The notes beneath the pieces are model-generated. The model saw only the letters and a list, made by a program, of their open reading frames with translations. It was not told where the DNA came from and made no database searches. DNA of 64,000 bases from Nemertoderma westbladi (Eukaryota; Animalia; Xenacoelomorpha): NCBI GenBank assembly GCA_032718475.1, contig JAUCBJ010001179.1:69562-133561 (forward strand). Direction: 5' to 3'. Position numbers and translations under genes: made by a program. Below are positions 29,105-62,957 of this stretch, piece by piece. Numbering within the stretch: position 1 is the first letter of the stretch; each line of letters starts with the position of its first letter.

Positions 29105-29241
29105 TTAGCTCCGGACCAACAACCTAACAGTTCCTCTTAGTCTCTTCAACAATCGGACCACTTTATCATGGCCCATCCCGTGTAGACTCTTCCCGTTAAC
29201 CGCGAGTATCTGGTTCCCCCGTCTCAATCTACCGTCGTCCA
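29105..29241 (-). pseudogene. Duplicated MPDZ terminal exon, copy 4, truncated (3' half only)
   Basis: Matches the PDZ exon up to ...ccgtcgtcca, then jumps about 1.6 kb within the unit. Confidence 0.88.
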
Positions 29242-35858: not shown

Positions 35859-36126
35859 TTAGCTCCGGACCAACAACCTAACAGTTCCTCTTAGTCTCTT
35901 CAACAATCGGACCACTTTATCATGGCCCATCCCGTGTAGACTCTTCCCGTTAACCGCGAGTATCTGGTTCCCCCGTCTCAATCTACCGTCGTCCACTGCC
36001 GCCCCCTTCGCGTAGACTGTCTTTACGTAGATAGGGAGGTTACCATGGGGACTGCCGTAACCGCCCACAATAGAGAATCCCAGACCCTGGGAACCCCGCT
36101 GGAGAGTTACCGTGGTAACCAAATCA
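35859..36126 (-). CDS. MPDZ: MPDZ-like terminal exon encoding the C-terminal PDZ domain (PDZ13-equivalent) and stop
   Basis: Acceptor attttcag|T GAT TTG; complete PDZ domain [15 protein letters not shown]...GTVRLLVRS*. Confidence 0.92.
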
Positions 36127-39100
36127 CTGAAAATAAAAGTTAGTTAGATTATATTTGATTTAACGAAAACTACAGAACCTAAAAGGTTATTAAGACCAAA
36201 ATGTTGCGATCAGTGACGATCTGATAAAAAAAAGAAATTCAACTGACCCAGAATTTAACTGTTCGTGTTGTTTCTCAATATTGTCCAACTCCATCGTATC
36301 TTGACTTGACTGACTAACTTCTGTTGTTTTTGATTCTGCGAAATGAAATAGAAACAAATAAAATAGTCATCTAGAAATTCACTCAACTTCTTAGGAAGCC
36401 AACCACTTACACGAAATTATAAAGAAAGTCAACTAAATGAATACTGGATATAAACAAATAACTATGTATATGACTTATTGCTGTTTGTATTACGTGTGTG
36501 TGTGTATGCCGAGTGTTTGTGGCTGTGGCATAGCGCGGCCTTCCAGTAAGTAGGCCGAGTTAATATACAATTAATTTACATTTTAGAATGATAATCAACT
36601 AATAAACAAACAGCTGTGAAGCAGCACTACAAACTCGGATCGATTACTTTTTCCGTCGGCTGATAACGCGCAATTACTGTGAAATGTTTAACAATTTAGG
36701 ATTCATTGAGTCAGCAAACATAAATAAATATTTAACATATAATAAACCTGAAGGTAGGCCTGTTGGTGATTCCTCTTTGTAGTATTCCTTGGCGTAATCC
36801 TGATACAGTCTCTCAAAGTCTCCCTTGTAAACAACATCCTCAGGGTCGGCCTCACTGACAGCACCACTACCATCGGCGTTGGCTTCCCCATCCAATGGAC
36901 TGTCTACAGACCCAGACAGGTCGAGCTGCAGAGACGGGGGGGTTCCACGGTTTATGGCACCAAGTTCAGCCATGGAATCTGTGTGATAAAGATAACAATA
37001 TTGTTTTGGGAAAAATCAACTTATCAGCTACACCCACCAACTAATCACTACCAGCGACACCTACCCACTAATCGCTACCAGCTATACCCACCAACTAATC
37101 CCCACCAGCTACACCCACCAACTAATCCCTACCAGCTATACCCACAAAGTAATCCCTACCAGCGACACCTACCAACTAATCCCTACCAGCTACACCAACC
37201 AACTAATAATCCCAACCAGCTACACCCACCAACAAATCCCTACCAGCTACACCCACCAACTAATCCCCACCAGCTACACCCACCAACTAATCCCTACCAG
37301 CTATACCCACCAACTAATCCCTACCAGCGACACCTACCCACTAATCGCTACCAGCTATACCCACCAACTAATCCCCACCAGCTACACCCACCAACTAATC
37401 CCTACCAGCTATACCCACCAACTAATCCTCACCAGCTACACCCACCAACTAATCCCTACCAACTACACCCACCAACTAATCCCTACCAGCTACACCAACC
37501 ACAGCAACTAATAATCCCTACCAGCTACACCCACCAACTAATAATCCCTACCAGCTACACCCACCAACTAATCACTACCAGCTACACCCACCAACTAATC
37601 CCTATCAGCTACACCTACCCACTAATCCCTACCAGCTACACCCACCAACTAATTCCTACCAGCTACACCAACCAACTAATAATCCCTACGAGCTACACCC
37701 ACCAACTAATAATCCCTACCAGCTACACCCACCAACTAATCCCTACCAGCTACACCCACCAACTAATCCTTACCAGCTACACCCACCAACGAATCCCTAC
37801 CCGCTACACCCACAAACTAATAACTACCAGCTACACCCACCAACTAATCCTTACCAGCTACACCCACCCACTAATCCCTACCAGCTATACCCACCAACTA
37901 ATCCCTACCAGCGACACCTACCCACTAATCGCTACCAGCTATACCCACCAACTAATCCCCACCAGCTACACCCACCAACTAATCCCTACCAGCTATACCC
38001 ACCAACTAATCCCCACCAGCTACACCCACCAACTAATCCCTACCAACTACACCCACCAACTAATCCCTACCAGCTACACCCACCAACTAATCCCTACCAG
38101 CTATACCCACAAAGTAATCCCTACCAGCGACACCTACCAACTAATCCCTACCAGCTACACCAACCAACTAATAATCCCAACCAGCTACACCCACCAACAA
38201 ATCCCTACCAGCTACACCCACCAACTAATCCCCACCAGCTACACCCACCAACTAATCCCTACCAGCTACACCCACCAACTAATTCCTACCAGCTACACCA
38301 ACCAACTAATAATCCCTACGAGCTACACCCACCAACTAATAATCCCTACCAGCTACACCCACCAACTAATCCCTACCAGCTACACCCACCAACTAATTCC
38401 TACCAGCTACACCAACCAACTAATAATCCCTACGAGCTACACCCACCAACTAATAATCCCTACGAGCTACACCCACCAACTAATAATCCCTACCAGTTAC
38501 ACCCACCAACTAATCCCTACCAGCTACACCCACCAACTAATCCTTACCAGCTACACCCACCAACGAATCCCTACCCGCTACACCCACCAACTAATAACTA
38601 CCAGCTACACCCACCAACTAATCCTTACCAGCTACACCCACCCACTAATCCCTACCAGCTACACCCACCAACTAATCCCTACCAGCTACACCAACCACAG
38701 CAACTAATAATCCCTACCAGCTACACCCACCAACTAATAATCCCTACCAGCTACACCCACCAACTAATCACTACCAGCTACACCCACCAACTAATCCCTA
38801 TCAGCTACACCTACCCACTAATCCCTACCAGCTACACCCACCAACTAATTCCTACCAGCTACACCAACCAACTAATAATCCCTACGAGCTACACCCACCA
38901 ACTAATAATCCCTACCAGCTACACCCACCAACTAATCCCTACCAGCTACACCCACCAACGAATCCCTACCCGCTACACCCACCAACTAATAACTACTAGC
39001 TACACCCACCAACTAATCCTTACCAGCTACACCCACCCACTAATCCCTACCAGCTACACCCACCCACTAATCCCTACCAGCTACACCCACCCACTAATCC

Positions 39101-42100: not shown

Positions 42101-45100
42101 CCTACCAGCTACACTCACCAACTAATCCCTACCAGCTACACCCACCAACTAATCCCTACCAGCTACATCCACCAACTAATCCCTCTAATCCGCCAACTTA
42201 CTCACCTCCGTCTCCATTCTCCCCATCGCTTGTATGGATAGAATAGGTTTTATTGGTTTTATCTTCTGTGCTCATATTATCCTCATTAATTTCAACTTGA
42301 ACATAATTTGAATCGCCGGCCAACTGCTCCTCATTGCCGGCATGGCTCTGACTATCAGTGCTTGTCTCCATAACAACATCAGTATCGTGCAGATCAGAAA
42401 CATCTTCTTTAACTCCTCCGGTTAGATCCTGCCATGTGATGTCACTGAGAGCTAAAATATAGGAATTTATTAATCGCTTAATATTTATCCATTTTCCTAA
42501 TTTGTACATTCAATTCACCCTCCCTCCTATAACCCAGTTGGCCTGTAAAGCAACGTTACCTCTGTGAGTGAACGGGACTACCGAAGAATATATGATGGGA
42601 CTTTACCGAAGAATAATGGAAATCAACATTATTATTGCTTTAATATTTATAGAACTTATTTCTATCTATATACATATATTATCCATGGATCCCTGTAAGC
42701 TTGAACGTCTTTTCTCTTCAACGTTTTTTCATTTCCTCCACTTTTTCTCAAAAAATATATTAAATTCTAAATTGATTAAAGTTATTTAACCTTATCTAAG
42801 TTTTTTTTGTATTTGGAAATAATGTATAACTTCTATGTTAATACACAACTATTTTGCAATGGCAATGACACACCCCCACCCCCCCCCCCCCCCCCCTTCC
42901 TTATCCCACCGTCCTTAAATCCTCAATTATTTAATCAAATCGAATGAAGCTATTTAATCTAATATTCTTAGGTGGGTAGTAAACTACTAGCGCAATCTAT
43001 CATACTATACTCCTACCACTAACTATATAATACTATACCACACTATAATACTAGACCTATTATGACCGGTTGCATTTTATGGTGATCCCCAACTTTTTTT
43101 AAATTGTTTTGGAATGTATATTTTTGTTGAATTTAGAGGAAATAAATAAAATAATTTAATTGAACATGAAACATCGGCGGCAACCCCGCGACGCCTTCTC
43201 TCTCTTGACAATTACCTGTAACTCTCAGGTGGGGCCACTCTAACTCCCAAGTTTGAACACTCAATATATATCCAACCGTTACCGTAGTAGAAGCACAATT
43301 CCCATATCGCGCACCAGTTACGAGATTGTAACTCAACTTCCTCGGCGCAGGATTAAACAGTAGATCTCCCACATAAGGAGAAAAGAATAACACTTTACTA
43401 GAAGTGCTTATTTCCTTATCCGCTGTAGTCCCCCAACCTTCTCCCTTCATGAACTCTGTGCCTGTAGTTATGACCCTATAACTATAACTTCCCCTATACC
43501 TTCCCCTCCTCTAACTTACCCCCTATTGTTTCCCCTGTACCTCCCCCCTTTCCCCTAACTTACCCCGTGTTGTTTCCCCTGTACCTTTCCCCTAACCCAC
43601 CCCCTAGTGTTTCCCCTGTACTTCACCCCTTCCCCTAACTTACCCCCTATTATTGCCCCTATTCCCTCCCCCCTTCCCCTAACTTACCCCCTATTGTTTC
43701 CCCTGTACCTCCCCCCTTTCCCCTAACTTACCCCGTGTTGTTTCCCCTGTACCTTTCCCCTAACACACCCCCTAAGTGTTTCCCCTGTACCTCACCCCTT
43801 CCCCTAACTTACCCCCTATTGTTGCCCCTATTCCCTCCCCCTTTCCCATAACTTACCCCCTGTTGTTGCCCCTGTTCCTTCCTCTTCCCCTTCTGTCTCT
43901 CCATAATCGAATGGCGACGCAACTCTCAGTTCGAGTTTTGTTTTCGTTTTCATTAACTCTATAATACTTCCCTGGTCTAATCCGTCTAATGGCTCTTTAT
44001 TTACTGAAAGAACTCGATCACCAACCTTGAAAAATAAAAATATTACAGCTTTTATTTTTATATATTTGTGTGACCCGTTCAAAATCATAACAAGCGCGAA
44101 TCGCTCCTAGGTCCACGTCTACTAACGCATGAACTGTCTCCCGAATGTATGAATTTGCTCTAGAAACTGCGCCATGTGAAGCCTTATACATCTAAAATTT
44201 AAGTGGAAATGAATAACAACAACACCAACAATGGTATGAATACTAGAGGTCTCGAAACGCGGACCTAAAAAAACCGACCGAATCGAAACAAAGGCCTATT
44301 TTTGCGTTTACCTTTTTTTTTACACAACTACATGTAGTTTTCACGAATAATAATTTCCAACCTTGAGTTTAGTCGTCTGAGAGGCTAGACCCCCGGGTAC
44401 AATGTAAGTGATGTAAACGGCCCCATCGTCAACCAATTCGGAACCTTTCCCTCCGGCTATACTGAACCCTAAAGACTGCTCTGGTTGAACCTACAGAAAA
44501 ATAGTTGTATTTTTATAATATCAATAAAATCTATGTTGAATAAATTCTGGGAAGAGCTGAGTGTTGGCTTATTACTATGCAGTTTGGCGCGGGACAAATG
44601 GCCAATTCTGTTTGTCCGTTTCTCTGTGTCAGTCCGTCTGTCTGCCTAAACGAACCGTCTGTTTGTAAAATTTGATGTTTAAAAGTGATACAGATAATTC
44701 GGAACCGGTATGTAAATATAAATATTAATTCGATAATATTGTGCGTGAATCATAGATAGTTACCGAAAGTGATGTTTTATTAGTCTGTCGTATTTTTCTG
44801 ATATGACGGATAAGTTAAAAAGAAGCTCTAAACTATCTAATAAATGATTCATATTAACAAATTAATTAAGTCCAACCAATAAATCATATTCAGAACCTGT
44901 ATAACAGTAATTAATATTGGTTGAATCATGGAGGCCACCAGTTCGATCCCACCTGGACGCCATTGCCGAATTTGCTAAGCTGTGTCCAACAAAAATTATT
45001 ACGGTGTCCGAACACAACCCCCCCCCCCCCCGTTCAAATAGGACACTTCTCCCCGGACACTCCCCCCCCCCCCTCCCCCCCCGACTGTTCTTAATTTCGT

Positions 45101-48100
45101 ACTTGACTAGATACAACCTGTCCTGTAACCATCTTTAACTTTTGTTTATTGCTTTGATGCACCCAGATTAAGTTAACACTTTAACTGGGGGGGAACTGAC
45201 CGGGGGGAAGTGTCCAGGGGGGTGGTGTCATAGAACCATTATAACATATAACAGTAATGGCATTTTGGAAACATATCTGAACCACCAATGTCTAGTATTG
45301 CGATTATGTAGCATCTATATTTCTGCATCATTCTTTCAGGTTTACATTTTATCACCCAATCTCCATTATAATTATTATTGTTTTAATATAATAGGCGGAT
45401 CTCATTGCATGGCCCAACAAGGCACAGCGATGTATTTTAATGTAACACAATGTAACACATTGAGTTGCGAGGAATCAATATGTCAAGGCAATATATGTTT
45501 TGAGTCGACTGACTGACAGGAAATAATTCCTGTATGATTATTAGGGCTGAGCACAATGGCTGTAGATTGGCTGCTGTGGAACGACAATGACGCACATCAG
45601 GTGGTTCGACTGGGGAGAGTGCCATATTGCCTTCCTCCAGGACATCACCAGTTAGATCCACCTACTGGACGCCAAACTCATCTTTACCAAGGTGCGATGA
45701 ATAGTGTTGTAGATAACACGGGGGTAAGGTAATCGCGGATGACGTAGTAAGCAGGCTTAGCATACCGGTACCATCCGCACTACTGCAACCGTTGCCTAGT
45801 CGCCATCTAGCGGGGGACTGGAGAACTACTGAGTCTCCCCACACAAATTATATTCCAGACTATTGACAGACTAAGTTTGGTTTCATTTCATCATCAAATA
45901 TTGACTTGAGTTATTAGCCTTCAAACATTTGCCGACAGATAGACAGATAAACGGTTGAAACATTGGTACCTACTCGTACGCTAAAGCTCGCTTTCTACGT
46001 CGCTCGCCCCACAAATAAAAATTAAGTCATATTTTTTTACCAGTATAGTCTGGCATAAAAACAAATTGTTTTTCGATAAAATAATTCCTTAATATAACGG
46101 TGACCCGAAAGGTGCTACTCCCCGTTGAGGAATCAAACAGGGTATCCCCCATATTGGATGCAAAGAATAGCAAGAGATAGGTACTGGAATTACTAGACCA
46201 ATGGGAAGCCTTCTTAGCGAGGTGATAATTAGAAAGAAAAACCGCTAATAAAATACGAAAATTAACATAACCATATACAACAAGCAATAGCAAAAAGTAT
46301 TGTGTAGGTTAGTATGTAGTTTATTTCTTAATAAATTAACAATCAAAATAAGGTTCATTACTCATAAATTGATTAATAGGTTACAAAATAAATTGAGCGA
46401 AACCATAGAAACTATAAGTGTGTAGAAACTTAAGTATCATATAAATATTAATTATATAACATAAACCGAATTAATATTATAAACCAAATGGTTCGCACGA
46501 GAAGAAAAAATGTACTGAGTTAGACCTATTTAGGTTAGTAAATCAGATAGTTATTAGTGACGTCATAGTCTTATTGACGTCACGGGTATAGTTTGGAAGC
46601 TGTGTAAGTATGTAGGTGGCAGCAGCAATAAATAGTTCGACAAATGGGATAACAAGGGAGCTGATTGCATCAATAACATTGTGACGTCACACAAGCACGA
46701 ACAGATGCGTCACGAACAATTTGTCATCACGTCTTTCGTCTAGAAAAAAAAAACAAAAAAAAAGGTTTTAAACTTAATTAATTGTTCACTATGACGTGAT
46801 GATAATATAACTTATTTAACCAAATAAATGAGTGTCAGACAGATTAAACATCAATATGACAGACGACGTCATAGACACGCCCATGTGAAGAATACCAGGA
46901 TTTCACTTTTCGGTCGACTTTTTTTTATTGGAATTTTATATATGAAGATTTTTTATTTTTTTTAATTTATCTTTTTTAAGTGTTTTATAGCGCTTATTTC
47001 TGTCTTATAACCTGTGCATATACTAAATCGTTTATTGTTTTGGTTAGATTCAGCCCTTCTGTAACCTGTGCTTTTGGTGAAAACCTGGTATTCTTCACAT
47101 GGGGGTAACTGCGAAGTGAAATATAACGGCAGAAAGTCTGGTATTCTGCATATGGGCCCAAAGACAGACAACAAATTATAAGAAAAGACAAAGAAGGGTA
47201 AAACTACCAACCTTTATGAAATCAGTCGGTGACATAATATTTGCAGTCGCAGCGACATTATTATGCATATGTGGCGGTGAAAGCGAAAAGGTACCTTAAG
47301 GTGAAAATTACGTTTTGAGAAAATCGTATTTAAAGAAAAATTTCATTTTCAAGTCAAAATTTTCAATTTTTTTATTTTCAATGTGATATATGCAGTTTTT
47401 AATGAGGAATCCAAATCTGTTAACGGTATGTTAACAGCTAGCTTAGTTTTGGAGATAGTCAGCTTTGATTGAGGGTAGTCAGAAGTTTTGAAATTTAAAT
47501 CTCATTCCCGGTAGATATTATGTTGTTCTATGTAGATTTACTCTTATAAATTAATTTATATGCCTTATTATTCCAATAGAAAACTATCTTCCAGTTATTT
47601 TCAATATGTTTGCTTGTCAATCGCTCTCTTAGTTGTTCATGTACTGCTCGGAGTCCCAGATTAGATAAAAACCCAGCATAGTTGTTCACGTGCTGCTCGA
47701 AGTCCTGGCTAGAAAAAAAAGGCAGCATAGTTGTTCATTAGTTTGCTAATGCACATTCCTGTTACACATTTTGCCCCTCAAGCCTCAACATCACAACACA
47801 ACCCCCGCCCCACTCCAATTTAGTAAACTCACTTTCAAGATATTTTGTAAGTAATCCCTACGACAATTAAAATACAACAAAAACTTTAAACGCGATTTAC
47901 TCGTAATAATATATTTTCCATCTGGTTGTCGTGCCAATACTTAAATTCTAATAACTCCTGATGTACTCATCCAATCAGGATGATTTATAGCTCATTAGAG
48001 AGCTGAGATGTTGGCCAATCACATGAAATATCTAACTCAAAAACCTCATTTTCACCTTAAGGTACCTTTTCGCGTTCACTGCCACATATACACTTGTAGA

Positions 48101-51100
48101 CAACGCCAACCCATGCAAATAAAGCAGCAATCCATGCAATAAACTCATTTAAAATGAAAAACTAAACCAACATAGAAGCAACAATGCAAGGCGATGTGAC
48201 AACGACATAAATAATTGACTAAATTAAATCAATAAACAACAGTTACATAAATCTTGTGAAAAGCCAACAGGTACACAAAAAGTTACAATTGAAGGAAATA
48301 TATAAAGAATAGGCAGATAGAGGGGAAACTGGACGCAATAAAAATTCATCCTTCTCCACGGGAAATTCGACGCAAATAACATATGATTACTCTCAAAACT
48401 GTAACCTGTTCTATTGTATTTAGTTTATTGCTTTGGTTAAAATAACGTGCCACTGTAACCTGCTCCTTTCCCTAAATTGAGAATTTAACATTGAAGCGGG
48501 ATATTAATTTGCCAAGGCGGGTTTTGCGTCCATTTTCCCCCCTCTTTCAGAATAAGATTTTTAAGGAGTGAAATAAAAATGATTTTTCAAGCAAATAACG
48601 TAACTTCAAAGTATTGTAAGTTTATAAGAATCGTTATACCGGTATACTAATAGTATCGAATTAAAATCAATAATTTCCATCAATTTAATATGTTTTATTA
48701 TAGAAGTATATTCCGCTAATATTAATAGATGATTGTTCGACTTCCTTTACCCACTTAAGCGCTAATCAGATATTAACCCGCTAGCGTAAAAGAGACATCG
48801 ATCTAAACCTCGATATCTCCACCCCACATTGTGCATTTAACTTATCTTGTCAAGTCTGACTCATTTCCAATCCACGGCCCAGTTTAGGTAAAATGGAAAC
48901 TATGAAATAAGGTAATAAAATGGAAACATACCACCCACCTTCGCGGTTATCTAACCTATATTCCCAAAAATATAGAGCAAAAACCTAAAATAATCTAACA
49001 TTATAATTATGTCATTTAATTTAATTAATTATTATTAACATCTCACACCTTTATTAGAGTCACGTCCCTTTCATTGGCTGATTGTTGACTCCGCGATGAC
49101 GAACTGTTGCTATGGCGACTGGTAGGTCTGGAGCCCTCTTTTAACCGACCAATCGTGAGGCTAACTTTGCCTCGGACAGTCTGTAAGAAACATCAGGGAC
49201 ACAATGTAAGTGGCAGTAATATATACCAAAAACAGTATATTAGGTAATTATACCTCAGTTTTGCAAGTCTGATCTGTGGAATTCGCTGAATTATCAGAAC
49301 CTTATCAATTTTAGGTCTAATTATAAACAAATAGGTCCGAATTGTATTGAGATTTAAATTGAAGTTGACATTGTTCGTACTAAACTGTGTGTATATGAGG
49401 CTTTAAGAAACACATACTTTATACTAAGCTGAAGCCACACATAATATACTAACTTTAAGCCACACCTACTATACTAACTTTAAGCCACACCTACTATACT
49501 AACTTTCAGCCACACACCTACTATACTAACTTTAAGCCACACCTACTATACTAACTTTAAGCCACCCACCTACTATACTAACTTTAAGCCACACACCTAC
49601 TATACTAACTTTCAGCCACACCTACTATACCAACTTTAAGCCTCACCTACTATACTAACTTTAAGCCACACACCTACTATACTAACTTTCAGCCACACCT
49701 ACTATACCAACTTTAAGCCTCTCCTACTATACTAACTTTAAGCCACACACCTACTATACTAACTTTAAGCCACACACCTACTATACTAACCTTTATGCAC
49801 ACCTACTATACTAACTTTAAGCCACACCTACTATACTAACTTTAAGCCACACCTACTATACTAACTTTAAGCCACACACCTACTATACTAACTTTCAGCC
49901 AGACCTACTATACCAACTTTAAGCCTCTCCTACTATACTAACTTTAAGCCACACACCTACTATACTAACTTTAAGCCACACACCTACTATACTAACTTTT
50001 ATGCCACACCTACTATACTAACTTTAAGCCACACCTACTATACTAACTTTAAGCCACACCTACTATACTAACTTTAAGCCACACCTACTATACTAACTTT
50101 AAGCCACACACCTACTATACTAACTTTAAGCCACACACCTACTATACTAACTTTAAGCCACACCTACTATACTAACTTTAAGCCACACACCTACTATACT
50201 AACTTTTATGCACACCTACTATACTAACTTTAAGCCACACCTACTATACTAACTTTAAGCCACACCTACTATACTAACTTTAAGCCACACACCTACTATA
50301 CTAACTTTCAGCCACACCTACTATACCAACTTTAAGCCTCACCTACTATACTAACTTTAAGCCACACACCTACTATACTAACTTTCAGCCACACCTACTA
50401 TACCAACTTTAAGCCTCTCCTACTATACTAACTTTAAGCCACACACCTACTATACTAACTTTAAGCCACACACCTACTATACTAACTTTTATGCCACACC
50501 TACTATACTAACTTTAAGCCACACCTACTATACTAACTTTAAACCACACACCTACTATACCAACTTTAAGCCTCACCTACTATACTAACTTTAAGCCACA
50601 CACCTACTATACTAACTTTAAGCCACACACCTACTATACCAACTTTAAGCCTCACCTACTATACTAACTTTAAACCACACACATACTATACTAACTTTAA
50701 GCCACACACCTACTATACTAACTTTAAGCCACACACCTACTATACTAACTTTCAGCCACACCTACTATACTAACTTTCAGCCACACCTACTATACTAACT
50801 TTCAGCCACACCTACTATACTAACTTTAAGCCACACACCTACTATACTAACTTTAAGCCACACACCTACTATACTAACTTTAAGCCACACCTACTATACT
50901 AACTTTAAGCCACACCTACTATACTAACTTTAAGCCACACCTACTATACTAACTTTAAGCCACACACCTACTATACTAACTTTAAGCCACACCTACTATA
51001 CTAACTTTAAGCCACACCTACTATACTAACTTTAAGCCACACCTACTATACTAACTTTAAGCCACACCTACTATACTAACTTTAAGCCACACCTACTATA

Positions 51101-54100
51101 CTAACTTTAAGCCACACCTACTATACTAACTTTAAGCCACACACCTACTATACTAACTTTAAGCCACACCTACTATACTAACTTTAAGCCACACCTACTA
51201 TACTAACTTTAAGCCACACACCTACTATACTAACTTTAAGCCTCACCTACTATACTAACTTTAAGCCACACACCTACTATACTAACTTTAAGCCACACCT
51301 ACTATACTAACTTTAAGCCACACACCTACTATACTAACTTTAAGCCACACACCTACTATACTAACTTTAAGCCACACCTACTATACTAACTTTAAGCCAC
51401 ACCTACTATACTAACTTTAAGCCACACACCTACTATACTAACTTTAAGCCTCACCTACTATACTAACTTTAAGCCACACACCTACTATACTAACTTTAAG
51501 CCTCACCTACTATACTAACTTTAAGCCACACACCTACTATACTAACTTTAAGCCACACCTACTATACTAACTTTAAGCCACACCTACTATACTAACTTTA
51601 AGCCACACACCTACTATACTAACTTTAAGCCTCACCTACTATACTAACTTTAAGCCACACACCTACTATACTAACTTTAAGCCTCACCTACTATACTAAC
51701 TTTAAGCCACACACCTACTATACTAACTTTAAGCCACACACCTACTATACTAACTTTAAGCCTCACCTACTATACTAACTTTAAGCCACACCTACTATAC
51801 TAACTTTAAGCCACACCTACTATACTAACTTTCAGCCACACCTACTATACTAACTTTCAGCCACACCTACTATACTAACTTTCAGCCACACCTACTATAC
51901 TAACTTTCAGCCACACCTACTATACTAACTTTAAGCCACACCTACTATACTAACTTTCAGCCACACCTACTATACTAACTTTAAGCCACACCTACTATAC
52001 TAACTTTCAGCCACACCTACTATACTAACTTTAAGCCACACCTACTATACTAACTTTAAGCCACACACCTACTATACTAACTTTAAGCCACACCCTACTA
52101 TACTAACTTTAAGCCACACCTACTATACTAACTTTAAGCCACACCTACTATACTAACTTTAAGCCACACCTACTATACTAACTTTAAGCCACACACCTAC
52201 TATACTAACTTTAAGCCTCACCTACTATACTAACTTTAAGCCACACACCTACTATACTAACTTTAAGCCTCACCTACTATACTAACTTTAAGCCACACAC
52301 CTACTATACTAACTTTAAGCCACACACCTACTATACTAACTTTAAGCCACACACCTACTATACTAACTTTAAGCCTCACCTACTATACTAACTTTAAGCC
52401 ACAACTACTATACTAACTTTAAGCCACACCTACTATACTAACTTTAAGCCACACACCTACTATACTAACTTTAAGCCACACACTACTATACTAACTTTCA
52501 GCCACACCTACTATACTAACTTTCAGCCACACCTACTATACTAACTTTAAGCCACACCTACTATACTAACTTTCAGCCACACCTACTATACTAACTTTAA
52601 ACCACACACCTACTATACTAACTTTAAGCCACACCCTACTATACTAACTTTCAGCCACACCTACTATACTAACTTTAAGCCACACCTACTATACTAACTT
52701 TCAGCCACACCTACTATACTAACTTTCAGCCACACCTACTATACTAACTTTCCGCCACACCTACTATACTAACTTTCAGCCACACCTACTATACTAACTT
52801 TCAGCCACACCTACTATACTAACTTTCAGCCACACCAACTATACTAACTTTAAGCCACACCTACTATACTAACTTTCAGGCACACCTACTATACTAACTT
52901 TAAGCCACACCTACTATACTAACTTTAAGCCACACCTACTATACTAACTTTCAGCCACACCTACTATACTAACTTTCAGCCACACCTACTATACTAACTT
53001 TAAGCCACACCTACTATACTAACTTTAAGCCACACACCTACTATACTAACTTTTAGCCACACCTACTATACTAACTTTCAGCCACACCTACTATACTAAC
53101 TTTCAGCCACACCTACTATACTAACTTTAAGCCACACCTACTATACTAACTTTCAGCCACACCTACTATACTAACTTTCAGCCACACCTACTATACTAAC
53201 TTTCAGCCACACCTACTATACTAACTTTCAGCCACACCTACTACTAACTTTCAGCCACACCTACTATACTAACTTTCAGCCACACCTACTATACTAACTT
53301 TAAGCCACACCTAATATACTAACTTTCAGCCACACCTACTATACTAACTTTAAGCCACACCTACTATACTAACTTTCAGCCACACCTACTATACTAACTT
53401 TCAGCCACACCTACTATACTAACTTTCAGCCACACCTACTATACTAACTTTAAGCCACACACCTACTATACTAACTTTCAGCCACACCTACTATACTAAC
53501 TTTCAGCCACACCTACTATACTAACTTTAAGCCACACCTACTATACTAACTTTCAGCCACACCTACTATACTAACTTTCAGCCACACCTACTATACTAAC
53601 TTTCAGCCACACCTACTATACTAACTTTAAGCCACACCTACTATACTAACTTTAAGCCACACCTACTATACTAACTTTAAGCCACACACCTACTATACTA
53701 ACTTTCAGCCACACCTACTATACTAACTTTCAGCCACACCTACTATACTAACTTTAAGCCACACCTACTATACTAACTTTCAGCCACACCTACTATACTA
53801 ACTTTAAGCCTCACCTACTATACTAACTTTAAGCCACACCTACTATACTAACTTTTCAGCCACACCTACTATACTAACTTTAAGCCACACCTACTATACT
53901 AACATTCAGCCACACCTACTATACTAACTTTAAGCCACACACCTACTATACTAACTTTAAGCCACACCTACTATACTAACTTTCAGCCACACCTACTATA
54001 CTAACTTTAAGCCACACCTACTATACTAACTTTCAGCCACACCTACTATACTAACTTTCAGCCACACCTACTATACTAACTTTCAGCCACACCTACTATA

Positions 54101-57100
54101 CTAACTTTCAGCCACACCTACTACTAACTTTCAGCCACACCTACTATACTAACTTTCAGCCACACCTACTATACTAACTTTAAGCCACACCTACTATACT
54201 AACTTTCAGCCACACCTACTATACTAACTTTAAGCCACACCTACTATACTAACTTTCAGCCACACCTACTATACTAACTTTCAGCCACACCTACTATACT
54301 AACTTTCAGCCACACCTACTATACTAACTTTAAGCCACACACCTACTATACTAACTTTCAGCCACACCTACTATACTAACTTTCAGCCACACCTACTATA
54401 CTAACTTTAAGCCACACCTACTATACTAACTTTCAGCCACACCTACTATACTAACTTTCAGCCACACCTACTATAGTAAATTTCAGCCACACCTACTATA
54501 CTAACTTTAAGCCACACCTACTATACTAACTTTAAGCCACACCTACTATACTAACTTTAAGCCACACACCTACTATACTAACTTTCAGCCACACCTACTA
54601 TACTAACTTTCAGCCACACCTACTATACTAACTTTAAGCCACACCTACTATACTAACTTTCAGCCACACCTACTATACTAACTTTAAGCCTCACCTACTA
54701 TACTAACTTTAAGCCACACCTACTGTACTAACTTTTCAGCCACACCTACTATACTAACTTTAAGCCACACCTACTATACTAACATTCAGCCACACCTACT
54801 ATACTAACTTTAAGCCACACACCTACTATACTAACTTTAAGCCACACCTACTATACTAACTTTCAGCCACACCTACTATACTAACTTTAAGCCACACCTA
54901 CTATACTAACTTTCAGCCACACACCTACTATACTAACTTTCAGCCACACCTACTATACTAACTTTAAGCCACACACCTACTATACTAACTTTCAGCCACA
55001 CACCTACTATACTAACTTTCAGCCACACCTACTATACTAACTTTAAGCCTCACCTACTATACTAACTTTAAGCCACACCTACTATACTAACTTTCAGCCA
55101 CACACCTACTATACTAACTTTCAGCCACACCTACTATACTAACTTTAAGCCACACCTACTATACTAACTTTAAGCCTCACCTACTATACTAACTTTAAGC
55201 CACACCTACTGTACTAACTTTTCAGCCACACCTACTATACTAACTTTAAGCCACACCTACTATACTAACATTCAGCCACACCTACTATACTAACTTTAAA
55301 CCACACACCTACTATACTAACTTTCAGCCACACCTACTATACTAACTTTCAGCCACACCTACTATACTAACTTTCAGCCACACCTACTATACTAACTTTC
55401 AGCCACACCTACTATACTAACTTTAAACCACACACCTACTATACTAACTTTCAGCCACACCTACTATACTAACTTTCAGCCACACCTACTATACTAACTT
55501 TCAGCCACACCTACTATACTAACTTTAAGCCACACCTACTATACTAACTTTCAGCCACACCTACTATACTAACTTTCAGCCACACCTACTATACTAACTT
55601 TCAGCCACACCTACTATACTAACTTTCAGCCACACCTACTATACTAACTTTAAACCACACACCTACTATACTAACTTTCAGCCACACCTACTATACTAAC
55701 TTTCAGCCACACCTACTATACTAACTTTCAGCCACACCTACTATACTAACTTTCAGCCACACCTACTATACTAACTTTAAACCACACACCTACTATACTA
55801 ACTTTCAGCCACACCTACTATACTAACTTTCAGCCACACCTACTATACTAACTTTCAGCCACACCTACTATACTAACTTTAAGCCACACCTACTATACTA
55901 ACTTTCAGCCACACCTACTATACTAACTTTCAGCCACACCTACTATACTAACTTTCAGCATTACTGCGGCTTTATTTCTACTCGCTGTCCTCATATCCTC
56001 GTTGTTAATCGCGATTATCTGATCGCCGGTTTGCAGTCGGCCGTCCTGCTCGGCCAAACCACCAGAGAGAACGTCCGATATAATAACACCATTATTGTTC
56101 CTGTTCAATGGAAAATTTCAGTTTTAGGATCCGGTGAAACATCATTATGTGTAGTAGGCCAAAACTATTAATCAAGATTCATCTAATCGAAAAAAAAAAT
56201 AAAATCAACTCAAATTTAAAATAACTGCTTTCTCATTATTATACTGCACATTAAAGGTGCATAACAGAAATTTATAATGGAAACTTTACAAATATACCAT
56301 ATACTATACAATACTACATACAGTATAGTAACTAGGTACCTGTCTGTATACATAATTCATTAAGTGAAGACAAAATTATGTATAATAAAAGTACTGCTTA
56401 TAAAAGTAGCAGACTTTATTAATCTACTAACTTTCGACTTCTGATGCTGATTCCCAGACTGGATCCCGGCCTTTTACTTAAATCGACATTAAATATATCG
56501 CAAACATCTTCCTCCTTGTATATTGTATCATCTCTGTAGATTCGCATTGTGACGCTAGATGGCGTATGTCTGAGTGCGTGTATGGCTTCGTCGTGGGTGG
56601 CATTCCTTAGATTCACATGGTTGACCTGAAACAAATACCAACATTCTGATCAGATGCCGGTCCAACTCCACAGTCTGCCATTTCGTCTACTCACCAACTG
56701 TATGTAGTCTGTACTTTTCCCCAACCCACACTCTCCATTTCGTCCCCAACCCACACTCTCCATCTCGTCCCCAACCCACACTATCCATCTCGTCCCCAAC
56801 CCACACTCTCCATCTCGTCCCCAACCCACACTCTCCATCTCGTCCCCAACCCACACTCTCCATCTCGTCCCCAACCCACACTATCCATCTCGTCCCCAAC
56901 CCACACTCTCCATCTCGTCCCCAACCCACACTCTCCATCTCGTCCCCAACCCACACTCTCCATCTCGTCCCCAACCCACACTCTCCATCTCGTCCCCAAC
57001 CCACACTCTCCATCTCGTCCCCAACCCACACTCTCCATCTCGTCCCCAACCCACACTATCCATCTCGTCCCCAACCCACACTCTCCATCTCGTCCCCAAC

Positions 57101-60100
57101 CCACACTCTCCATCTCGTCCCCAACCCACACTCTCCATCTCGTCCCCAACCCACACTATCCATCTCGTCCCCAACCCACACTCTCCATCTCGTCCCCAAC
57201 CCACACTCTCCATCTCGTCCCCAACCCACACTCTCCATCTCGTCCCCAACCCACACTATCCATCTCGTCCCCAACCCACACTCTCCATCTCGTCCCCAAC
57301 CCACACTCTCCATCTCGTCCCCAACCCACACTCTCCATCTCGTCCCCAACCCACACTATCCATCTCGTCCCCAACCCACACTCTCCATCTCGTCCCCAAC
57401 CCACACTCTCCATCTCGTCCCCAACCCACACTATCCATCTCGTCCCCAACCCACACTCTCCATCTCGTCCCCAACCCACACTCTCCATCTCGTCCCCAAC
57501 CCACACTCTCCATCTCGTCCCCAACCCACACTCTCCATCTCGTCCCCAACCCACACTATCCATCTCGTCCCCAACCCACACTCTCCATCTCGTCCCCAAC
57601 CCACACTCTCCATCTCGTCCCCAACCCACACTCTCCATCTCGTCCCCAACCCACACTATCCATCTCGTCCCCAACCCACACTCTCCATCTCGTCCCCAAC
57701 CCACACTCTCCATCTCGTCCCCAACCCACACTCTCCATCTCGTCCCCAACCCACACTCTCCATCTCGTCCCCAACCCACACTCTCCATCTCGTCCCCAAC
57801 CCACACTCTCCATCTCGTCCCCAACCCACACTCTCCATCTCGTCCCCAACCCACACTCTCCATCTCGTCCCCAACCCACACTATCCATCTCGTCCCCAAC
57901 CCACACTCTCCATCTCGTCCCCAACCCACACTATCCATCTCGTCCCCAACCCACACTCTCCATCTCGTCCCCAACCCACACTCTCCATCTCGTCCCCAAC
58001 CCACACTATCCATCTCGTCCCCAACCCACACTCTCCATCTCGTCCCCAACCCACACTATCCATCTCGTCCCCAACCCACACTCTCCATCTCGTCCCCAAC
58101 CCACACTCTCCATCTCGTCCCCAACCCACACTCTCCATCTCGTCCCCAACCCACACTCTCCATCTCGTCCCCAACCCACACTATCCATCTCGTCCCCAAC
58201 CCACACTCTCCATCTCGTCCCCAACCCACACTATCCATCTCGTCCCCAACCCACACTCTCCATCTCGTCCCCAACCCACACTCTCCATCTCGTCCCCAAC
58301 CCACACTCTCCATCTCGTCCCCAACCCACACTCTCCATCTCGTCCCCAACCCACACTATCCATCTCGTCCCCAACCCACACTCTCCATCTCGTCCCCAAC
58401 CCACACTATCCATCTCGTCCCCAACCCACACTCTCCATCTCGTCCCCAACCCACACTCTCCATCTCGTCCCCAACCCACACTCTCCATCTCGTCCCCAAC
58501 CCACACTCTCCATCTCGTCCCCAACCCACACTATCCATCTCGTCCCCAACCCACACTCTCCATCTCGTCCCCAACCCACACTATCCATCTCGTCCCCAAC
58601 CCACACTCTCCATCTCGTCCCCAACCCACACTCTCCATCTCGTCCCCAACCCACACTCTCCATCTCGTCCCCAACCCACACTCTCCATCTCGTCCCCAAC
58701 CCACACTATCCATCTCGTCCCCAACCCACACTCTCCATCTCGTCCCCAACCCACACTATCCATCTCGTCCCCAACCCACACTCTCCATCTCGTCCCCAAC
58801 CCACACTATCCATCTCGTCCCCAACCCACACTCTCCATCTCGTCCCCAACCCACACTCTCCATCTCGTCCCCAACCCACACTCTCCATCTCGTCCCCAAC
58901 CCACACTCTCCATCTCGTCCCCAACCCACACTATCCATCTCGTCCCCAACCCACACTCTCCATCTCGTCCCCAACCCACACTATCCATCTCGTCCCCAAC
59001 CCACACTCTCCATCTCGTCCCCAACCCACACTATCCATCTCGTCCCCAACCCACACTCTCCATCTCGTCCCCAACCCACACTATCCATCTCGTCCCCAAC
59101 CCACACTCTCCATCTCGTCCCCAACCCACACTCTCCATCTCGTCCCCAACCCACACTATCCATCTCGTCCCCAACCCACACTCTCCATCTCGTCCCCAAC
59201 CCACACTCTCCATCTCGTCCCCAACCCACACTCTCCATCTCGTCCCCAACCCACACTCTCCATCTCGTCCCCAACCCACACTCTCCATCTCGTCCCCAAC
59301 CCACACTCTCCATCTCGTCCCCAACCCACACTCTCCATCTCGTCCCCAACCCACACTCTCCATCTCGTCCCCAACCCACACTCTCCATCTCGTCCCCAAC
59401 CCACACTCTCCATCTCGTCCCCAACCCACACTCTCCATCTCGTCCCCAACCCACACTATCCATCTCGTCCCCAACCCACACTATCCATCTCGTCCCCAAC
59501 CCACACTCTCCATCTCGTCCCCAACCCACACTATCCATCTCGTCCCCAACCCACACTCTCCATCTCGTCCCCAACCCACACTCTCCATCTCGTCCCCAAC
59601 CCACACTCTCCATCTCGTCCCCAACCCACACTATCCATCTCGTCCCCAACCCACACTCTCCATCTCGTCCCCAACCCACACTCTCCATCTCGTCCCCAAC
59701 CCACACTCTCCATCTCGTCCCCAACCCACACTATCCATCTCGTCCCCAACCCACACTCTCCATCTCGTCCCCAACCCACACTCTCCATCTCGTCCCCAAC
59801 CCACACTCTCCATCTCGTCCCCAACCCACACTATCCATCTCGTCCCCAACCCACACTATCCATCTCGTCCCCAACCCACACTCTCCATCTCGTCCCCAAC
59901 CCACACTCTCCATCTCGTCCCCAACCCACACTCTCCATCTCGTCCCCAACCCACACTCTCCATCTCGTCCCCAACCCACACTATCCATCTCGTCCCCAAC
60001 CCACACTATCCATCTCGTCCCCAACCCACACTCTCCATCTCGTCCCCAACCCACACTCTCCATCTCGTCCCCAACCCACACTCTCCATCTCGTCCCCAAC

Positions 60101-62957
60101 CCACACTCTCCATCTCGTCCCCAACCCACACTCTCCATCTCGTCCCCAACCCACACTCTCCATCTCGTCCCCAACCCACACTATCCATCTCGTCCCCAAC
60201 CCACACTCTCCATCTCGTCCCCAACCCACACTCTCCATCTCGTCCCCAACCCACACTCTCCATCTCGTCCCCAACCCACACTCTCCATCTCGTCCCCAAC
60301 CCACACTCTCCATCTCGTCCCCAACCCACACTCTCCATCTCGTCCCCAACCCACACTCTCCATCTCGTCCCCAACCCACACTCTCCATCTCGTCCCCAAC
60401 CCACACTCTCCATCTCGTCCCCAACCCACACTCTCCATCTCGTCCCCAACCCACACTCTCCATCTCGTCCCCAACCCACACTCTCCATCTCGTCCCCAAC
60501 CCACACTCTCCATCTCGTCCCCAACCCACACTCTCCATCTCGTCCCCAACCCACACTCTCCATCTCGTCCCCAACCCACACTCTCCATCTCGTCCCCAAC
60601 CCACACTATCCATCTCGTCCCCAACCCACACTCTCCATCTCGTCCCCAACCCACACTATCCATCTCGTCCCCAACCCACACTCTCCATCTCGTCCCCAAC
60701 CCACACTCTCCATCTCGTCCCCAACCCACACTCTCCATCTCGTCCCCAACCCACACTCTCCATCTCGTCCCCAACCCACACTCTCCATCTCGTCCCCAAC
60801 CCACACTATCCATCTCGTCCCCAACCCACACTCTCCATCTCGTCCCCAACCCACACTATCCATCTCGTCCCCAACCCACACTCTCCATCTCGTCCCCAAC
60901 CCACACTCTCCATCTCGTCCCCAACCCACACTATCCATCTCGTCCCCAACCCACACTCTCCATCTCGTCCCCAACCCACACTATCCATCTCGTCCCCAAC
61001 CCACACTCTCCATCTCGTCCCCAACCCACACTCTCCATCTCGTCCCCAACCCACACTATCCATCTCGTCCCCAACCCACACTCTCCATCTCGTCCCCAAC
61101 CCACACTATCCATCTCGTCCCCAACCCACACTCTCCATCTCGTCCCCAACCCACACTCTCCATCTCGTCCCCAACCCACACTCTCCATCTCGTCCCCAAC
61201 CCACACTCTCCATCTCGTCCCCAACCCACACTCTCCATCTCGTCCCCAACCCACACTATCCATCTCGTCCCCAACCCACACTCTCCATCTCGTCCCCAAC
61301 CCACACTCTCCATCTCGTCCCCAACCCACACTCTCCATCTCGTCCCCAACCCACACTATCCATCTCGTCCCCAACCCACACTCTCCATCTCGTCCCCAAC
61401 CCACACTCTCCATCTCGTCCCCAACCCACACTCTCCATCTCGTCCCCAACCCACACTCTCCATCTCGTCCCCAACCCACACTATCCATCTCGTCCCCAAC
61501 CCACACTCTCCATCTCGTCCCCAACCCACACTCTCCATCTCGTCCCCAACCCACACTCTCCATCTCGTCCCCAACCCACACTATCCATCTCGTCCCCAAC
61601 CCACACTATCCATCTCGTCCCCAACCCACACTCTCCATCTCGTCCCCAACCCACACTCTCCATCTCGTCCCCAACCCACACTATCCATCTCGTCCCCAAC
61701 CCACACTCTCCATCTCGTCCCCAACCCACACTCTCCATCTCGTCCCCAACCCACACTATCCATCTCGTCCCCAACCCACACTATCCATCTCGTCCCCAAC
61801 CCACACTCTCCATCTCGTCCCCAACCCACACTCTCCATCTCGTCCCCAACCCACACTCTCCATCTCGTCCCCAACCCACACTCTCCATCTCGTCCCCAAC
61901 CCACACTATCCATCTCGTCCCCAACCCACACTATCCATCTCGTCCCCAACCCACACTCTCCATCTCGTCCCCAACCCACACTATCCATCTCGTCCCCAAC
62001 CCACACTCTCCATCTCGTCCCCAACCCACACTCTCCATCTCGTCCCTAACCCACACTCTCCATCTCGTCCCCAACCCACACTCTCCCCTCTACTCACCGC
62101 CTGTATTTGGTCTCCTGCCCACAGTCTACCATCCCGGGCCGCTGCTCCCTCTTCGTAGACTTCGTGAACGAGTATAGAACCCAGTAAAGTGTCGGAGCCT
62201 CCAACAATAGACAGACCCAAACCTTAAAAATAGTATTATTGGTGTAAACATAATCACCAATAACTAACTATATTAAACCCTTTGCACATTGATAAAATTA
62301 TAGGCATATTTTACAGTATGTTAAAAAATAGTAAATTTAAGTGAAGTATTTTTACAAGGAAGATTAAACTTATATGTTAATTAATTGGTTGTTTATAAAT
62401 TAGTGACTTCAGAATAGATGCATGGACGAGGTGTTGATAATAATTCAAGGTGATTTGTCACAAGGGGGCGATGCGAGGGGGTTCTACATTAACATTGGAG
62501 TGTTGTCTACGAACAACCATTATTTGTATAGAAGAATGCTGGCCTATTCCTTTTAACAATTATTATTATTTAATTGAATTTTTATTTCTCCAATAATGGT
62601 TTGCTCCATATTGGCCCTTAGCAGTCCACCAACAAGAGAGACTTCGCTCGTTTTGAAATAAATTTGCTTAGATTAATTTAGTTTTAGATTTAATTTAATG
62701 TCGATTTTCGTTATTTTTATCAATATTATGCTTTGAAGTGCGATTTCCAAACACTAAAACGCGGAAAACAAATAAAATAACCTTTGATTATGAAAGTTTG
62801 ATTGAACCTAAGAATGTTGGCCTACCTGTGTTCCCTTTATCGATTGTAATTACGGTGGATTTCTTAGAAATGATGTCGCAGTCTACAGGATCGCCTTGTT
62901 CCGAATTAGTACCGAATATTGAATCACCCGAAGCGTTGGAGTTAGACCGTGAAAGAT
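35859..62957 (-). CDS. MPDZ: Multi-PDZ domain protein (MPDZ/MUPP1-PATJ family), 3' part: 11 coding exons, 4 PDZ domains; the 5' part lies beyond the window
   Basis: Exons 62826-62957, 62098-62222, 56432-56625, 55953-56100, 49049-49180, 44362-44490, 43857-44025, 42206-42451, 36748-36978, 36248-36335, 35859-36126 join through GT-AG introns with matching phases into one open frame. The motifs [52 protein letters not shown] and [32 protein letters not shown] match my recollection of vertebrate MPDZ PDZ10-13. MPDZ versus PATJ orthology was not tested. Confidence 0.88.
36248..36335 (-). CDS. MPDZ: MPDZ-like 88-nt exon ([30 protein letters not shown])
   Basis: Not in the ORF track. Acceptor tttcgcag|AA, donor TCTGG|gtcagt; needed to convert phase 1 to the phase 2 of the last exon. 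Confidence 0.78.
36748..36978 (-). CDS. MPDZ: MPDZ-like exon, acidic linker ([15 protein letters not shown]...EESPTGLPS)
   Basis: Acceptor cacacag|AT, donor TCAG|gtttat; 231 nt, phase 1-1. Confidence 0.8.
37021..42190. repeat. Intronic 27/30-bp minisatellite (ccaccaactaatccctaccagctacac), roughly 185 copies
   Basis: Fills almost all of intron 36979-42205. Confidence 0.96.
42206..42451 (-). CDS. MPDZ: MPDZ-like exon, acidic linker ([13 protein letters not shown]...DGENGDG)
   Basis: Acceptor attttag|CT, donor GGAG|gtgagt; 246 nt, open, phases fit both neighbours. Confidence 0.8.
43485..43890. repeat. About 42-bp degenerate minisatellite overlapping the exon end and donor site
   Basis: ccctaacttaccccctattgtt(g/t)cccct recurs about 10 times; the last copy is the exon end and real donor. 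Confidence 0.9.
43857..44025 (-). CDS. MPDZ: MPDZ-like exon (end of PDZ12: [16 protein letters not shown]...LELRVAS, start of acidic linker)
   Basis: Acceptor ttttcaag|GTT, donor GGGG|gtaagt; phase 1 out. Confidence 0.9.
44362..44490 (-). CDS. MPDZ: MPDZ-like exon (PDZ12: [43 protein letters not shown])
   Basis: Not in the ORF track. Acceptor ttctgtag|GTT, donor AAG|gttgga; 129 nt; SLGFSIAGG carboxylate-binding loop. Confidence 0.9.
45002..45240. mobile_element. Short MITE-like element with ggacacttccccc subrepeats in inverted orientation at its ends
   Basis: Left ggacacttctccccggacactcccc versus right ggggggaagtgtccagggggg; a related copy lies at 63330-63430. Confidence 0.55.
47267..48089. 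mobile_element. Non-autonomous DNA transposon (MITE-like), about 820 bp, with about 55-bp terminal inverted repeats
   Basis: atatgtggcggtgaaagcgaaaaggtaccttaaggtgaaaat... at the left is the reverse complement of ...attttcaccttaaggtaccttttcgcgttcactgccacatat at the right; no transposase ORF. Confidence 0.8.
48319..48545. mobile_element. Possible small MITE, about 225 bp
   Basis: agaggggaaactggacgcaa ... ttgcgtccattttcccccctct form an imperfect inverted repeat of about 20 bp. Confidence 0.4.
49049..49180 (-). CDS. MPDZ: MPDZ-like exon (end of PDZ11, Ser-rich linker, start of PDZ12: [16 protein letters not shown]...ERDVTLIK)
   Basis: Not in the ORF track. Acceptor tcttacag|ACT, donor AAG|gtgtga; 132 nt, open, phase 0-0; supplies the missing last strand of PDZ11. 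Confidence 0.85.
49401..55960. repeat. Intronic 25/27-bp minisatellite (actttcagccacacctactatacta), roughly 255 copies, overlapping the donor site
   Basis: The minus-strand unit GCTGAAA-GTTAGTATAGTAGGTGTG equals the exon/intron junction at 55953. Confidence 0.97.
55953..56100 (-). CDS. MPDZ: MPDZ-like exon (PDZ11: [37 protein letters not shown]...VMLK)
   Basis: Acceptor gaacag|G, donor CTGAAA|gttagt; PDZ motif DGRL..GDQI. Confidence 0.92.
56432..56625 (-). CDS. MPDZ: MPDZ-like exon (end of PDZ10, start of PDZ11: [15 protein letters not shown]...SLGISIRSR)
   Basis: Acceptor tgtttcag|GTC, donor AA|gttagt; phase 0 in, phase 2 out. Confidence 0.92.
56718..62090. repeat. Intronic 25-bp minisatellite (ccaacccacact[c/a]tccatctcgtcc), roughly 215 copies
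   Basis: Strict 25-bp period with essentially one variable site; fills intron 56626-62097. Confidence 0.98.
62098..62222 (-). CDS. MPDZ: MPDZ-like exon (PDZ10 core: [42 protein letters not shown])
   Basis: Acceptor tttttaag|GT, donor GCG|gtgagt; typical PDZ motifs. Confidence 0.93.
62826..62957 (-). CDS. MPDZ: MPDZ-like exon (linker and start of PDZ10-equivalent: DLSRSNS...[11 protein letters not shown])
   Basis: Acceptor ttttgtag|AT, donor ACAG|gtagg; phase 1 joins the next exon to give GLGLSIVGG. Confidence 0.85.

What the first reader, a model, noticed from the sequence alone, without database searches (positions are those of the whole stretch)
36979..62130. Four unrelated intronic minisatellites each start at a 5' splice site and look copied from the exon/donor sequence
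Seen: in 4 of the 10 introns an array begins at or within about 20 nt of the donor and extends toward the acceptor. In two (43857, 55953) the unit contains the exon end plus the donor. In one (62098) it resembles the last ~40 nt of the exon. In one (42206) it weakly resembles the donor (GTGAGTAAGTTGGCGG vs GGGATTAGTTGGTGG). All four are G-rich and C-poor on the sense strand, and their units are unrelated. Inference: a locally seeded, directional process linked to transcription or splicing (R-loops at donors, RNA-templated repair, or slippage tolerated only on the intron side) expands introns. I do not know a named system for this, but I cannot search the literature.
Basis: partly seen in the sequence, partly recalled or inferred. 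Interest (0 to 1): 0.88.

Follow-up and report, generated by a model that had tools for sequence, protein, structure and literature searches.

The report
Exon-end minisatellites swelling MPDZ introns
In an animal cell-junction scaffold gene (MPDZ), four introns carry G-rich tandem repeats that start at the splice donor, three of them matching the neighbouring exon end and likely copied from it, and one spliced transcript-type contig shows normal splicing across the two largest, so this is a large example of a repeat type already described in lancelets ("mirages") and humans.

Summary
The minus strand holds 11 exons of an MPDZ orthologue. Four of its 10 introns carry arrays starting 0-21 nt from the donor; together they make up 69% of intron sequence. 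A2 (25 bp x257) and A3 (44 bp x9) repeat the exon end plus donor (243 and 6 extra copies). A1 (25 bp x215) matches conserved PDZ-coding exon sequence (1 of 2000 shuffles) and has lost the donor, but a decayed junction copy survives at its far end (1 of 5000). A4's likeness to its donor is no better than chance. A spliced contig uses the first donor at A1 and A2. Such arrays are published as lancelet 'mirages' and as human F7, IFI6, CBS, LMNB2 and PDGF donor minisatellites, and this scan noted them on other DNA (31 findings, at least 12 genomes). Likely mechanism: local DNA tandem duplication of the junction, tolerated because the upstream donor wins, then ordinary array turnover. What stands out is size, density and a hint that G-rich exon ends are the seeds. 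RNA-templated growth is not supported. No genome was held, so the genome-wide test was not run.

The parts
62826..62957 (-). MPDZ exon E1 (first exon in the window)
   Evidence: open spliced frame; aligns to vertebrate MPDZ
62098..62222 (-). MPDZ exon E2; its last ~40 nt encode conserved PDZ sequence and are the likely seed of A1
   Evidence: GRLWAGDQI motif in 120 of 120 fetched MPDZ proteins; E2-E3 join seen as a loose end of spliced contig X3
56718..62086 (-). Array A1, 25 bp x215, donor-less sub-unit resembling E2 coding sequence; two main unit variants (156 and 56 copies)
56668..56710 (-). Decayed copy of the E2 end, the donor (GT at 56694) and a further exon-like piece at the far end of A1
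   Evidence: score 44; 1 of 5000 shuffles, 0 of 1066 background windows; covered by DNA contigs of runs X1 and X2
56432..56625 (-). MPDZ exon E3
   Evidence: X3 contig skips the 331-nt intron 3 with GT..AG ends
55953..56100 (-). MPDZ exon E4; its last 7 nt plus the donor are part of the A2 unit
   Evidence: E4-E5 join at 55953 seen in X3; 5 of 120 vertebrate isoforms lack 29 aa starting at this position
49420..55959 (-). Array A2, 25 bp x257, with 243 further copies of exon end plus donor (AAA|GTTAGT)
49049..49180 (-). MPDZ exon E5
   Evidence: its start is the loose end of X3 at 55953
44362..44490 (-). MPDZ exon E6
   Evidence: open frame, homology
43857..44025 (-). MPDZ exon E7; its last 23-37 nt are shared with the A3 unit
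   Evidence: an X3 piece covers 43868-44020 only
43489..43879 (-). Array A3, 37-44 bp units x9 with a 169-bp higher-order duplication; 6 further GGG|GTAAGT donors
42206..42451 (-). MPDZ exon E8 (acidic linker, G-rich end)
   Evidence: open frame and phase match; not covered by X3
37025..42184 (-). Array A4, 27 bp x187, starting 21 nt after the donor; origin from the junction not shown
36748..36978 (-). MPDZ exon E9
   Evidence: open frame
36260..36335 (-). MPDZ exon E10
   Evidence: needed for phase
35859..36126 (-). MPDZ last exon E11 (last PDZ domain and stop)
   Evidence: best single-domain PDB hit 2fne, MPDZ, E 5.5e-36; 67-71% identity to vertebrate MPDZ

Best explanation
These are 'mirage'-type minisatellites: in three of the four introns the unit matches the neighbouring exon end or donor, likely because a short stretch spanning that junction was tandemly duplicated in the DNA and then expanded by ordinary minisatellite turnover. 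The arrays run into the intron because the first donor stays the one used (shown for A1 and A2 in one contig), so all extra copies are spliced out and the protein is unchanged. In A1 an internal 25-bp part of an original ~45-50-bp junction unit was amplified and the donor dropped out (inferred from the relic at the far end). A4 is probably the same thing decayed past recognition, or was seeded just inside the intron (not resolved). The G-rich sense strand is inherited from G-rich seeds and may help expansion through G4 or R-loop instability (inferred, untested). The arrays are most likely neutral passengers.
For: Unit-to-own-junction matches for A1, A2, A3 and for no acceptor. The direction exon to array is clear for A1: the matching exon stretch encodes a motif present in 120 of 120 MPDZ proteins. 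Contig X3 joins E2-E3-E4-E5 at the first donors. Reading on past the A2 or A3 donor meets an in-frame stop within the first unit, which would select for use of the first donor. No unit matches elsewhere in the window (0 hits, 20-mers, up to 3 mismatches), and the commonest A2 contig in run X1 has depth 10.6 per window copy, equal to single-copy depth of 9-10 nearby, whereas dispersed elements in intron 5 reach 10^4-4x10^5. Precedent: lancelet mirages (PMC3087553, PMC3902484) and human F7, where the upstream donor is chosen by oriented scanning (PMC1557585).
Against: A4 fails the likeness test. The A3 and A4 donors were not seen spliced; the X3 piece on E7 stops 11 nt short of the modelled donor, unexplained. 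Splicing rests on one contig from a run labelled 'DNA?', and contigs drop rare forms. In A2, exon-type units are commoner near the donor (73 of 118 against 19 of 118), which a directional model also predicts. All four arrays share strand bias and side, which plain neutral duplication does not by itself require. Depth is not a copy-number measure, and X1 may be the source sample.
Confidence: 0.8

Rival explanations
1. Transcription drives the expansion: G-rich exon ends on the non-template strand form G4 or R-loops at donors, and repeated repair there grows the arrays. This is an addition to the best explanation, not an alternative origin.
For: 4 of 4 arrays are G-rich on the sense strand. The four array-bearing exon ends are the most G-skewed of ten (permutation 1 to 11 of 210 over six correlated post hoc tests). 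A1 and A3 score as G4-prone (G4Hunter mean 1.31 and 1.64). In yeast, G-runs are unstable only on the non-transcribed strand (PMC4256205, abstract); human G4 motifs are enriched 5.56-fold on the non-template strand at donors (PMC9065059, passages).
Against: The largest array, A2, is not G4-prone (0.46; 0 of its windows reach 1.2) and A4 is marginal (0.93). One gene, n = 10 donors. A3's exon end is part of the unit, so that test is partly circular. Selection against pyrimidine-rich, acceptor-like repeats would give the same bias.
Confidence: 0.25
2. RNA-templated repair or repeated copying from the donor extends the arrays directionally from the 5' splice site.
For: All arrays start at the donor; A2 units near the donor more often carry the exon-type variant.
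Against: A1's amplified unit lacks the donor and its most junction-like relic is at the acceptor end. A1 variants are interspersed with no gradient (0.66, 0.77, 0.74, 0.77 by quarter). A3 shows a 169-bp block duplication typical of DNA-level turnover. No unit contains a spliced exon-exon join (seen directly in the units).
Confidence: 0.05
3. The arrays are functional splicing elements (G-run enhancers or spare donors) kept by selection.
For: Some donors here are non-optimal (GTTAGT), and G4 motifs are enriched at weak human donors (PMC9065059, passages).
Against: Downstream donors would give stops. The same GTTAGT donor at intron 3 splices without an array. Units are unrelated and arrays are far longer than an enhancer needs.
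Confidence: 0.07
4. The arrays are dispersed satellite or mobile-element pieces that landed near donors, or assembly artefacts.
For: A4 has no shown local source; exact copy numbers cannot be checked with short-read contigs.
Against: Own-junction specificity; contigs of two DNA runs from different studies bridge exon and first array bases; depth fits a single locus for A2.
Confidence: 0.05

Closest known systems
Lancelet 'mirage' minisatellites (Adh3, globins BflGb6 and BflGb9, troponin C, PGBD5). Seen: passages of PMC3087553 and one passage of PMC3902484; Canestro et al. 2002 was not held and is known only through these citing papers
   Same: [quoted passage not shown]
   Different: Here three arrays are 5-6.5 kb with 187-257 copies (globin mirages 3-6 copies), all four lie on the donor side (lancelet globin mirages hit both sides), and A1 has lost the donor from its amplified unit. 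The organism is an unnamed animal.
Human donor-spanning minisatellites: F7 IVS7 (37 bp x5-9), IFI6/6-16 (25 pseudo-sites), CBS IVS13 (15-20), LMNB2 (100 bp x10-15), PDGF intron 4 (81 bp x16-18). Seen: abstract and passages of PMC1557585
   Same: The first unit spans the exon end and donor; the F7 unit has 4 exon bases, like the 7 in A2; the most upstream donor is used.
   Different: About ten times more copies in A2, and four arrays in one gene; length polymorphism and occasional use of the second or third donor (IFI6, CBS) were not shown here.
Intron gain by tandem duplication (Rogers model as cited in PMC3087553; De Grassi and Ciccarelli 2009, PMC2812944, passages)
   Same: Internal tandem repeats at exon-intron boundaries that lengthen introns.
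   Different: These introns were not made by the repeats: acceptors are unrelated to the units and the intron 4 position matches a vertebrate isoform break.

Membership tests
Mirage / junction-spanning minisatellite | Repeat unit spans the host gene's own exon-intron boundary (A2, A3) | tested here: met
   arrays start 7 and 23 nt inside the exon; 243 and 6 further junction copies
Mirage / junction-spanning minisatellite | Same feature for A1 | tested here: inconclusive
   the present unit holds exon-like sequence only; one decayed junction copy remains at the far end (1 of 5000), so A1 is best called mirage-derived
Mirage / junction-spanning minisatellite | Same feature for A4 | tested here: not met
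   902 and 608 of 5000 shuffles; 844 of 1000; A4 is not filed as a member
Mirage / junction-spanning minisatellite | Normal splicing at the authentic site (A1, A2) | tested here: met
   one spliced contig of run X3 joins E2-E3, E3-E4 and E4-E5; rare forms cannot be seen in contigs
Mirage / junction-spanning minisatellite | Normal splicing at the authentic site (A3, A4) | tested here: inconclusive
   X3 piece stops 11 nt short of the A3 donor and does not cover E8
Mirage / junction-spanning minisatellite | Locus-specific units of minisatellite length | tested here: met
   25-44 bp; 0 matches outside the own intron within the window; A2 depth fits one locus; whole genome not held
Mirage / junction-spanning minisatellite | Length instability between alleles | tested here: inconclusive
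   summed array depth relative to single copy is lower in X2 than in X1, but depth is no copy number and G-rich bias could explain it
Mirage / junction-spanning minisatellite | Homogenised interior with divergent edges | tested here: met
   A1 interior has two variants in 212 of 214 units, with decayed copies at both edges
Intron gain by tandem duplication | Both ends of the intron come from the repeat unit | tested here: not met
   0 of 10 acceptor sides resemble the preceding intron beyond chance; intron 4 position shared with vertebrate isoforms

The most novel reading that the evidence does not exclude
In this lineage G-rich exon ends act as seeds that transcription-linked G4/R-loop instability blows up into multi-kilobase arrays, making junction-born minisatellites the main source of intron length (69% of intron sequence in this gene part). 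Many intronic minisatellites with no visible splice signal, like A1 and perhaps A4, would then be disguised descendants of their neighbouring exon.
Probability: 0.2. Interest if true: 0.6.

Novelty: new member of a known kind. Interest (0 to 1): 0.3.

Why it matters
As one locus it is an extreme example of a described repeat type. A1 preserves an informative intermediate: seed exon, amplified donor-less sub-unit and relic junction in one intron, showing how a junction repeat can lose the marks of its origin. If the donor-side and G-strand bias held genome-wide, it would give a simple, testable source of intron growth in animals and a natural test of first-donor choice against up to 243 competing copies.

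Tried and rejected
The run search listed no RNA holder; X3 turned out to be spliced only when laid. X2 shows almost no cover inside A3: not used as evidence of absence. X6 laid nothing. The first E6 donor guess broke the frame and was corrected. A4's donor likeness was rejected as chance. Rogers-type intron birth was rejected. Look-ups of earlier notes for this genome, for relatives and for a multi-intron G-rich pattern returned nothing. Seven paper searches listed no genome-wide study of side or strand bias of junction-derived minisatellites; I judged this from listings and abstract starts, and subscription papers are mostly missing. Two cited papers were not held. No supplements were read; those of PMC3087553 (mirage alignments) and of human tandem-repeat catalogues could bear on how large known cases get.

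Full report
Setting. No whole genome is held for this window. Translation of the minus strand and a junction-by-junction model (corrected) give 11 exons from 62957 to 35859 with 10 GT-AG introns and an open 615-aa frame. The last exon's best single-domain PDB match is MPDZ (2fne), the named proteins among the 120 best hits are vertebrate MPDZ at 67-71% identity over this domain, and the first 350 residues align at about 43%. The organism is an animal far from any named record (a linker exon found 0 of 106 candidates); that it is an invertebrate is my inference.

The arrays. TRF finds A1 (25 bp x215, intron 2), A2 (25 bp x257, intron 4), A3 (44 bp x9, intron 7) and A4 (27 bp x187, intron 8). 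They total 17,460 bp, 69% of intron sequence and 64% of the gene span in the window. A2 and A3 begin inside the exon, A1 and A4 11 and 21 nt after the donor. Because A1 and A4 nearly fill their introns, their position alone says little; the four together have a post hoc chance of 1-5 x 10^-4. Sense-strand G is 0.34-0.55 and C 0.04-0.06, against 0.18 and 0.16 in the other intron sequence.

Are the units copied from the junction? A3: yes, 0 of 2000 shuffles against exon alone, with 6 further donors in exon context. A2: the unit holds 7 exon bases and the donor, repeated 243 more times; against exon alone it is not significant. A1: the unit matches the exon's last 40 nt (1 of 2000 shuffles, 0 of 2140 background windows per strand, best of 11 exon ends). 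That stretch encodes a motif found in 120 of 120 MPDZ proteins, so the exon is the source. Between A1 and the acceptor lies a decayed copy of exon end, donor and a further exon-like piece (1 of 5000 shuffles, 0 of 1066 background). The simplest history (inferred) is at least three tandem junction copies, with a 25-bp part of the middle one amplified 215 times. A4: the consensus is no closer to its donor than chance; only the edge unit is borderline in a post hoc test (97 and 62 of 5000). A uniform test of both sides of all ten introns flags only the donor sides of introns 2, 4 and 7.

Real and spliced? No RNA run was listed, but run X3, labelled 'DNA?', holds a 1630-nt contig that skips intron 3 at GT..AG and whose loose ends are the end of E2 and the start of E5. 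So A1 and A2 are spliced out and the first of the A2 donors is used, in the one contig seen. The A3 and A4 donors were not tested by this. DNA contigs from two studies cover the A1 relic and the first bases of A2 and A3. The commonest A2 contig in X1 has 10.6 depth per copy in the window, like single-copy sequence beside it; with the tool's warning that depth is no copy number, this fits one locus and not a dispersed family. No unit matches elsewhere in the window.

Mechanism. Shown: local identity of unit and junction in three arrays, use of the first donor in two, stops just beyond the A2 and A3 donors, DNA-type turnover marks (interspersed variants in A1, block duplication in A3, decayed edges). 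Inferred: birth by tandem duplication across the junction, survival because the upstream donor wins, growth by slippage or unequal exchange. Against RNA-templated growth from the donor: the A1 unit lacks the donor and its relic is at the far end. For a directional element: exon-type units in A2 are 73 of 118 in the donor half and 19 of 118 in the other, though neighbouring units resemble each other under any local turnover, so this does not decide. The four array-bearing exon ends are the most G-skewed of the ten (1 to 11 of 210 permutations, six correlated post hoc tests, partly circular for A3). A1 and A3 look G4-prone, A4 marginal, A2 not. Yeast work shows G-runs unstable only on the non-transcribed strand (PMC4256205, abstract) and human G4 motifs are enriched on that strand at donors (PMC9065059, passages), so a transcription-linked boost is plausible but untested.

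What is known. Tandem repeats spanning exon-intron boundaries are named 'mirages' in lancelet Adh3, globins, troponin C and PGBD5, where splicing stays normal (PMC3087553 and PMC3902484, passages). Human F7, IFI6, CBS, LMNB2 and PDGF carry donor-spanning minisatellites, and F7 minigenes show that the most upstream donor is chosen (PMC1557585, abstract and passages). A human catalogue counts 1470 tandem repeats on exon boundaries (PMC12855859, table passage). I reached this reading before opening the scan's notes; those list 31 similar findings in at least 12 genomes and acceptor-side cases, one reporting donors and acceptors hit equally in its genome. These are unchecked notes, but they caution against reading the 4-to-0 donor bias of one gene as a rule.

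Verdict. A2 and A3 are members of the known kind, A1 is derived from it, and A4 is unassigned. What is unusual is the size (up to 257 copies), four arrays in ten introns, and the caught-in-the-act loss of the donor in A1. Interest 0.3; the bolder reading (G-rich exon ends as transcription-driven seeds of intron growth) has probability about 0.2 and needs the genome-wide test.

Noticed in passing
window 1-35069: The 3' end of the same MPDZ gene (E11, E10 and part of E9, 99.6-100% identical) recurs at about 1629-2753, 11899-13023, 20965-21970 and, in part, 29105-29241, between composite satellites (200-bp, 36-bp, TATGC-type and 43-bp arrays), as a 6.7-10 kb tandem macro-repeat. A recent segmental amplification or an assembly effect.
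   Followed up: partly
window 46305-46739 (intron 5): A contig of the spliced-type run X3 matches exactly at depth 198 where DNA runs X1 and X2 show single-copy depth: possibly an exon of a nested or overlapping transcript.
   Followed up: no
window 43857-43868: The X3 piece on exon E7 ends 11 nt before the modelled donor with 25 letters left unshown; an allele with a shorter exon end, or trimming by the tool, could explain it.
   Followed up: no
window about 44.1, 44.9-45.2, 46.9-47.2 and 48.4-48.5 kb: Short, very high-copy dispersed elements in introns 5 and 6 (summed depth 10^4 to 4x10^5).
   Followed up: no
window 47630-47737: A fifth small tandem repeat (49 bp x2.2) in mid-intron 5, away from any junction.
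   Followed up: no
window 36260, 36748, 44362, 55953, 56432: Five of the ten donors have T at intron position +3 (GTTAAA, GTTTAT, GTTGGA, GTTAGT twice); two of them are confirmed by the spliced contig.
   Followed up: partly
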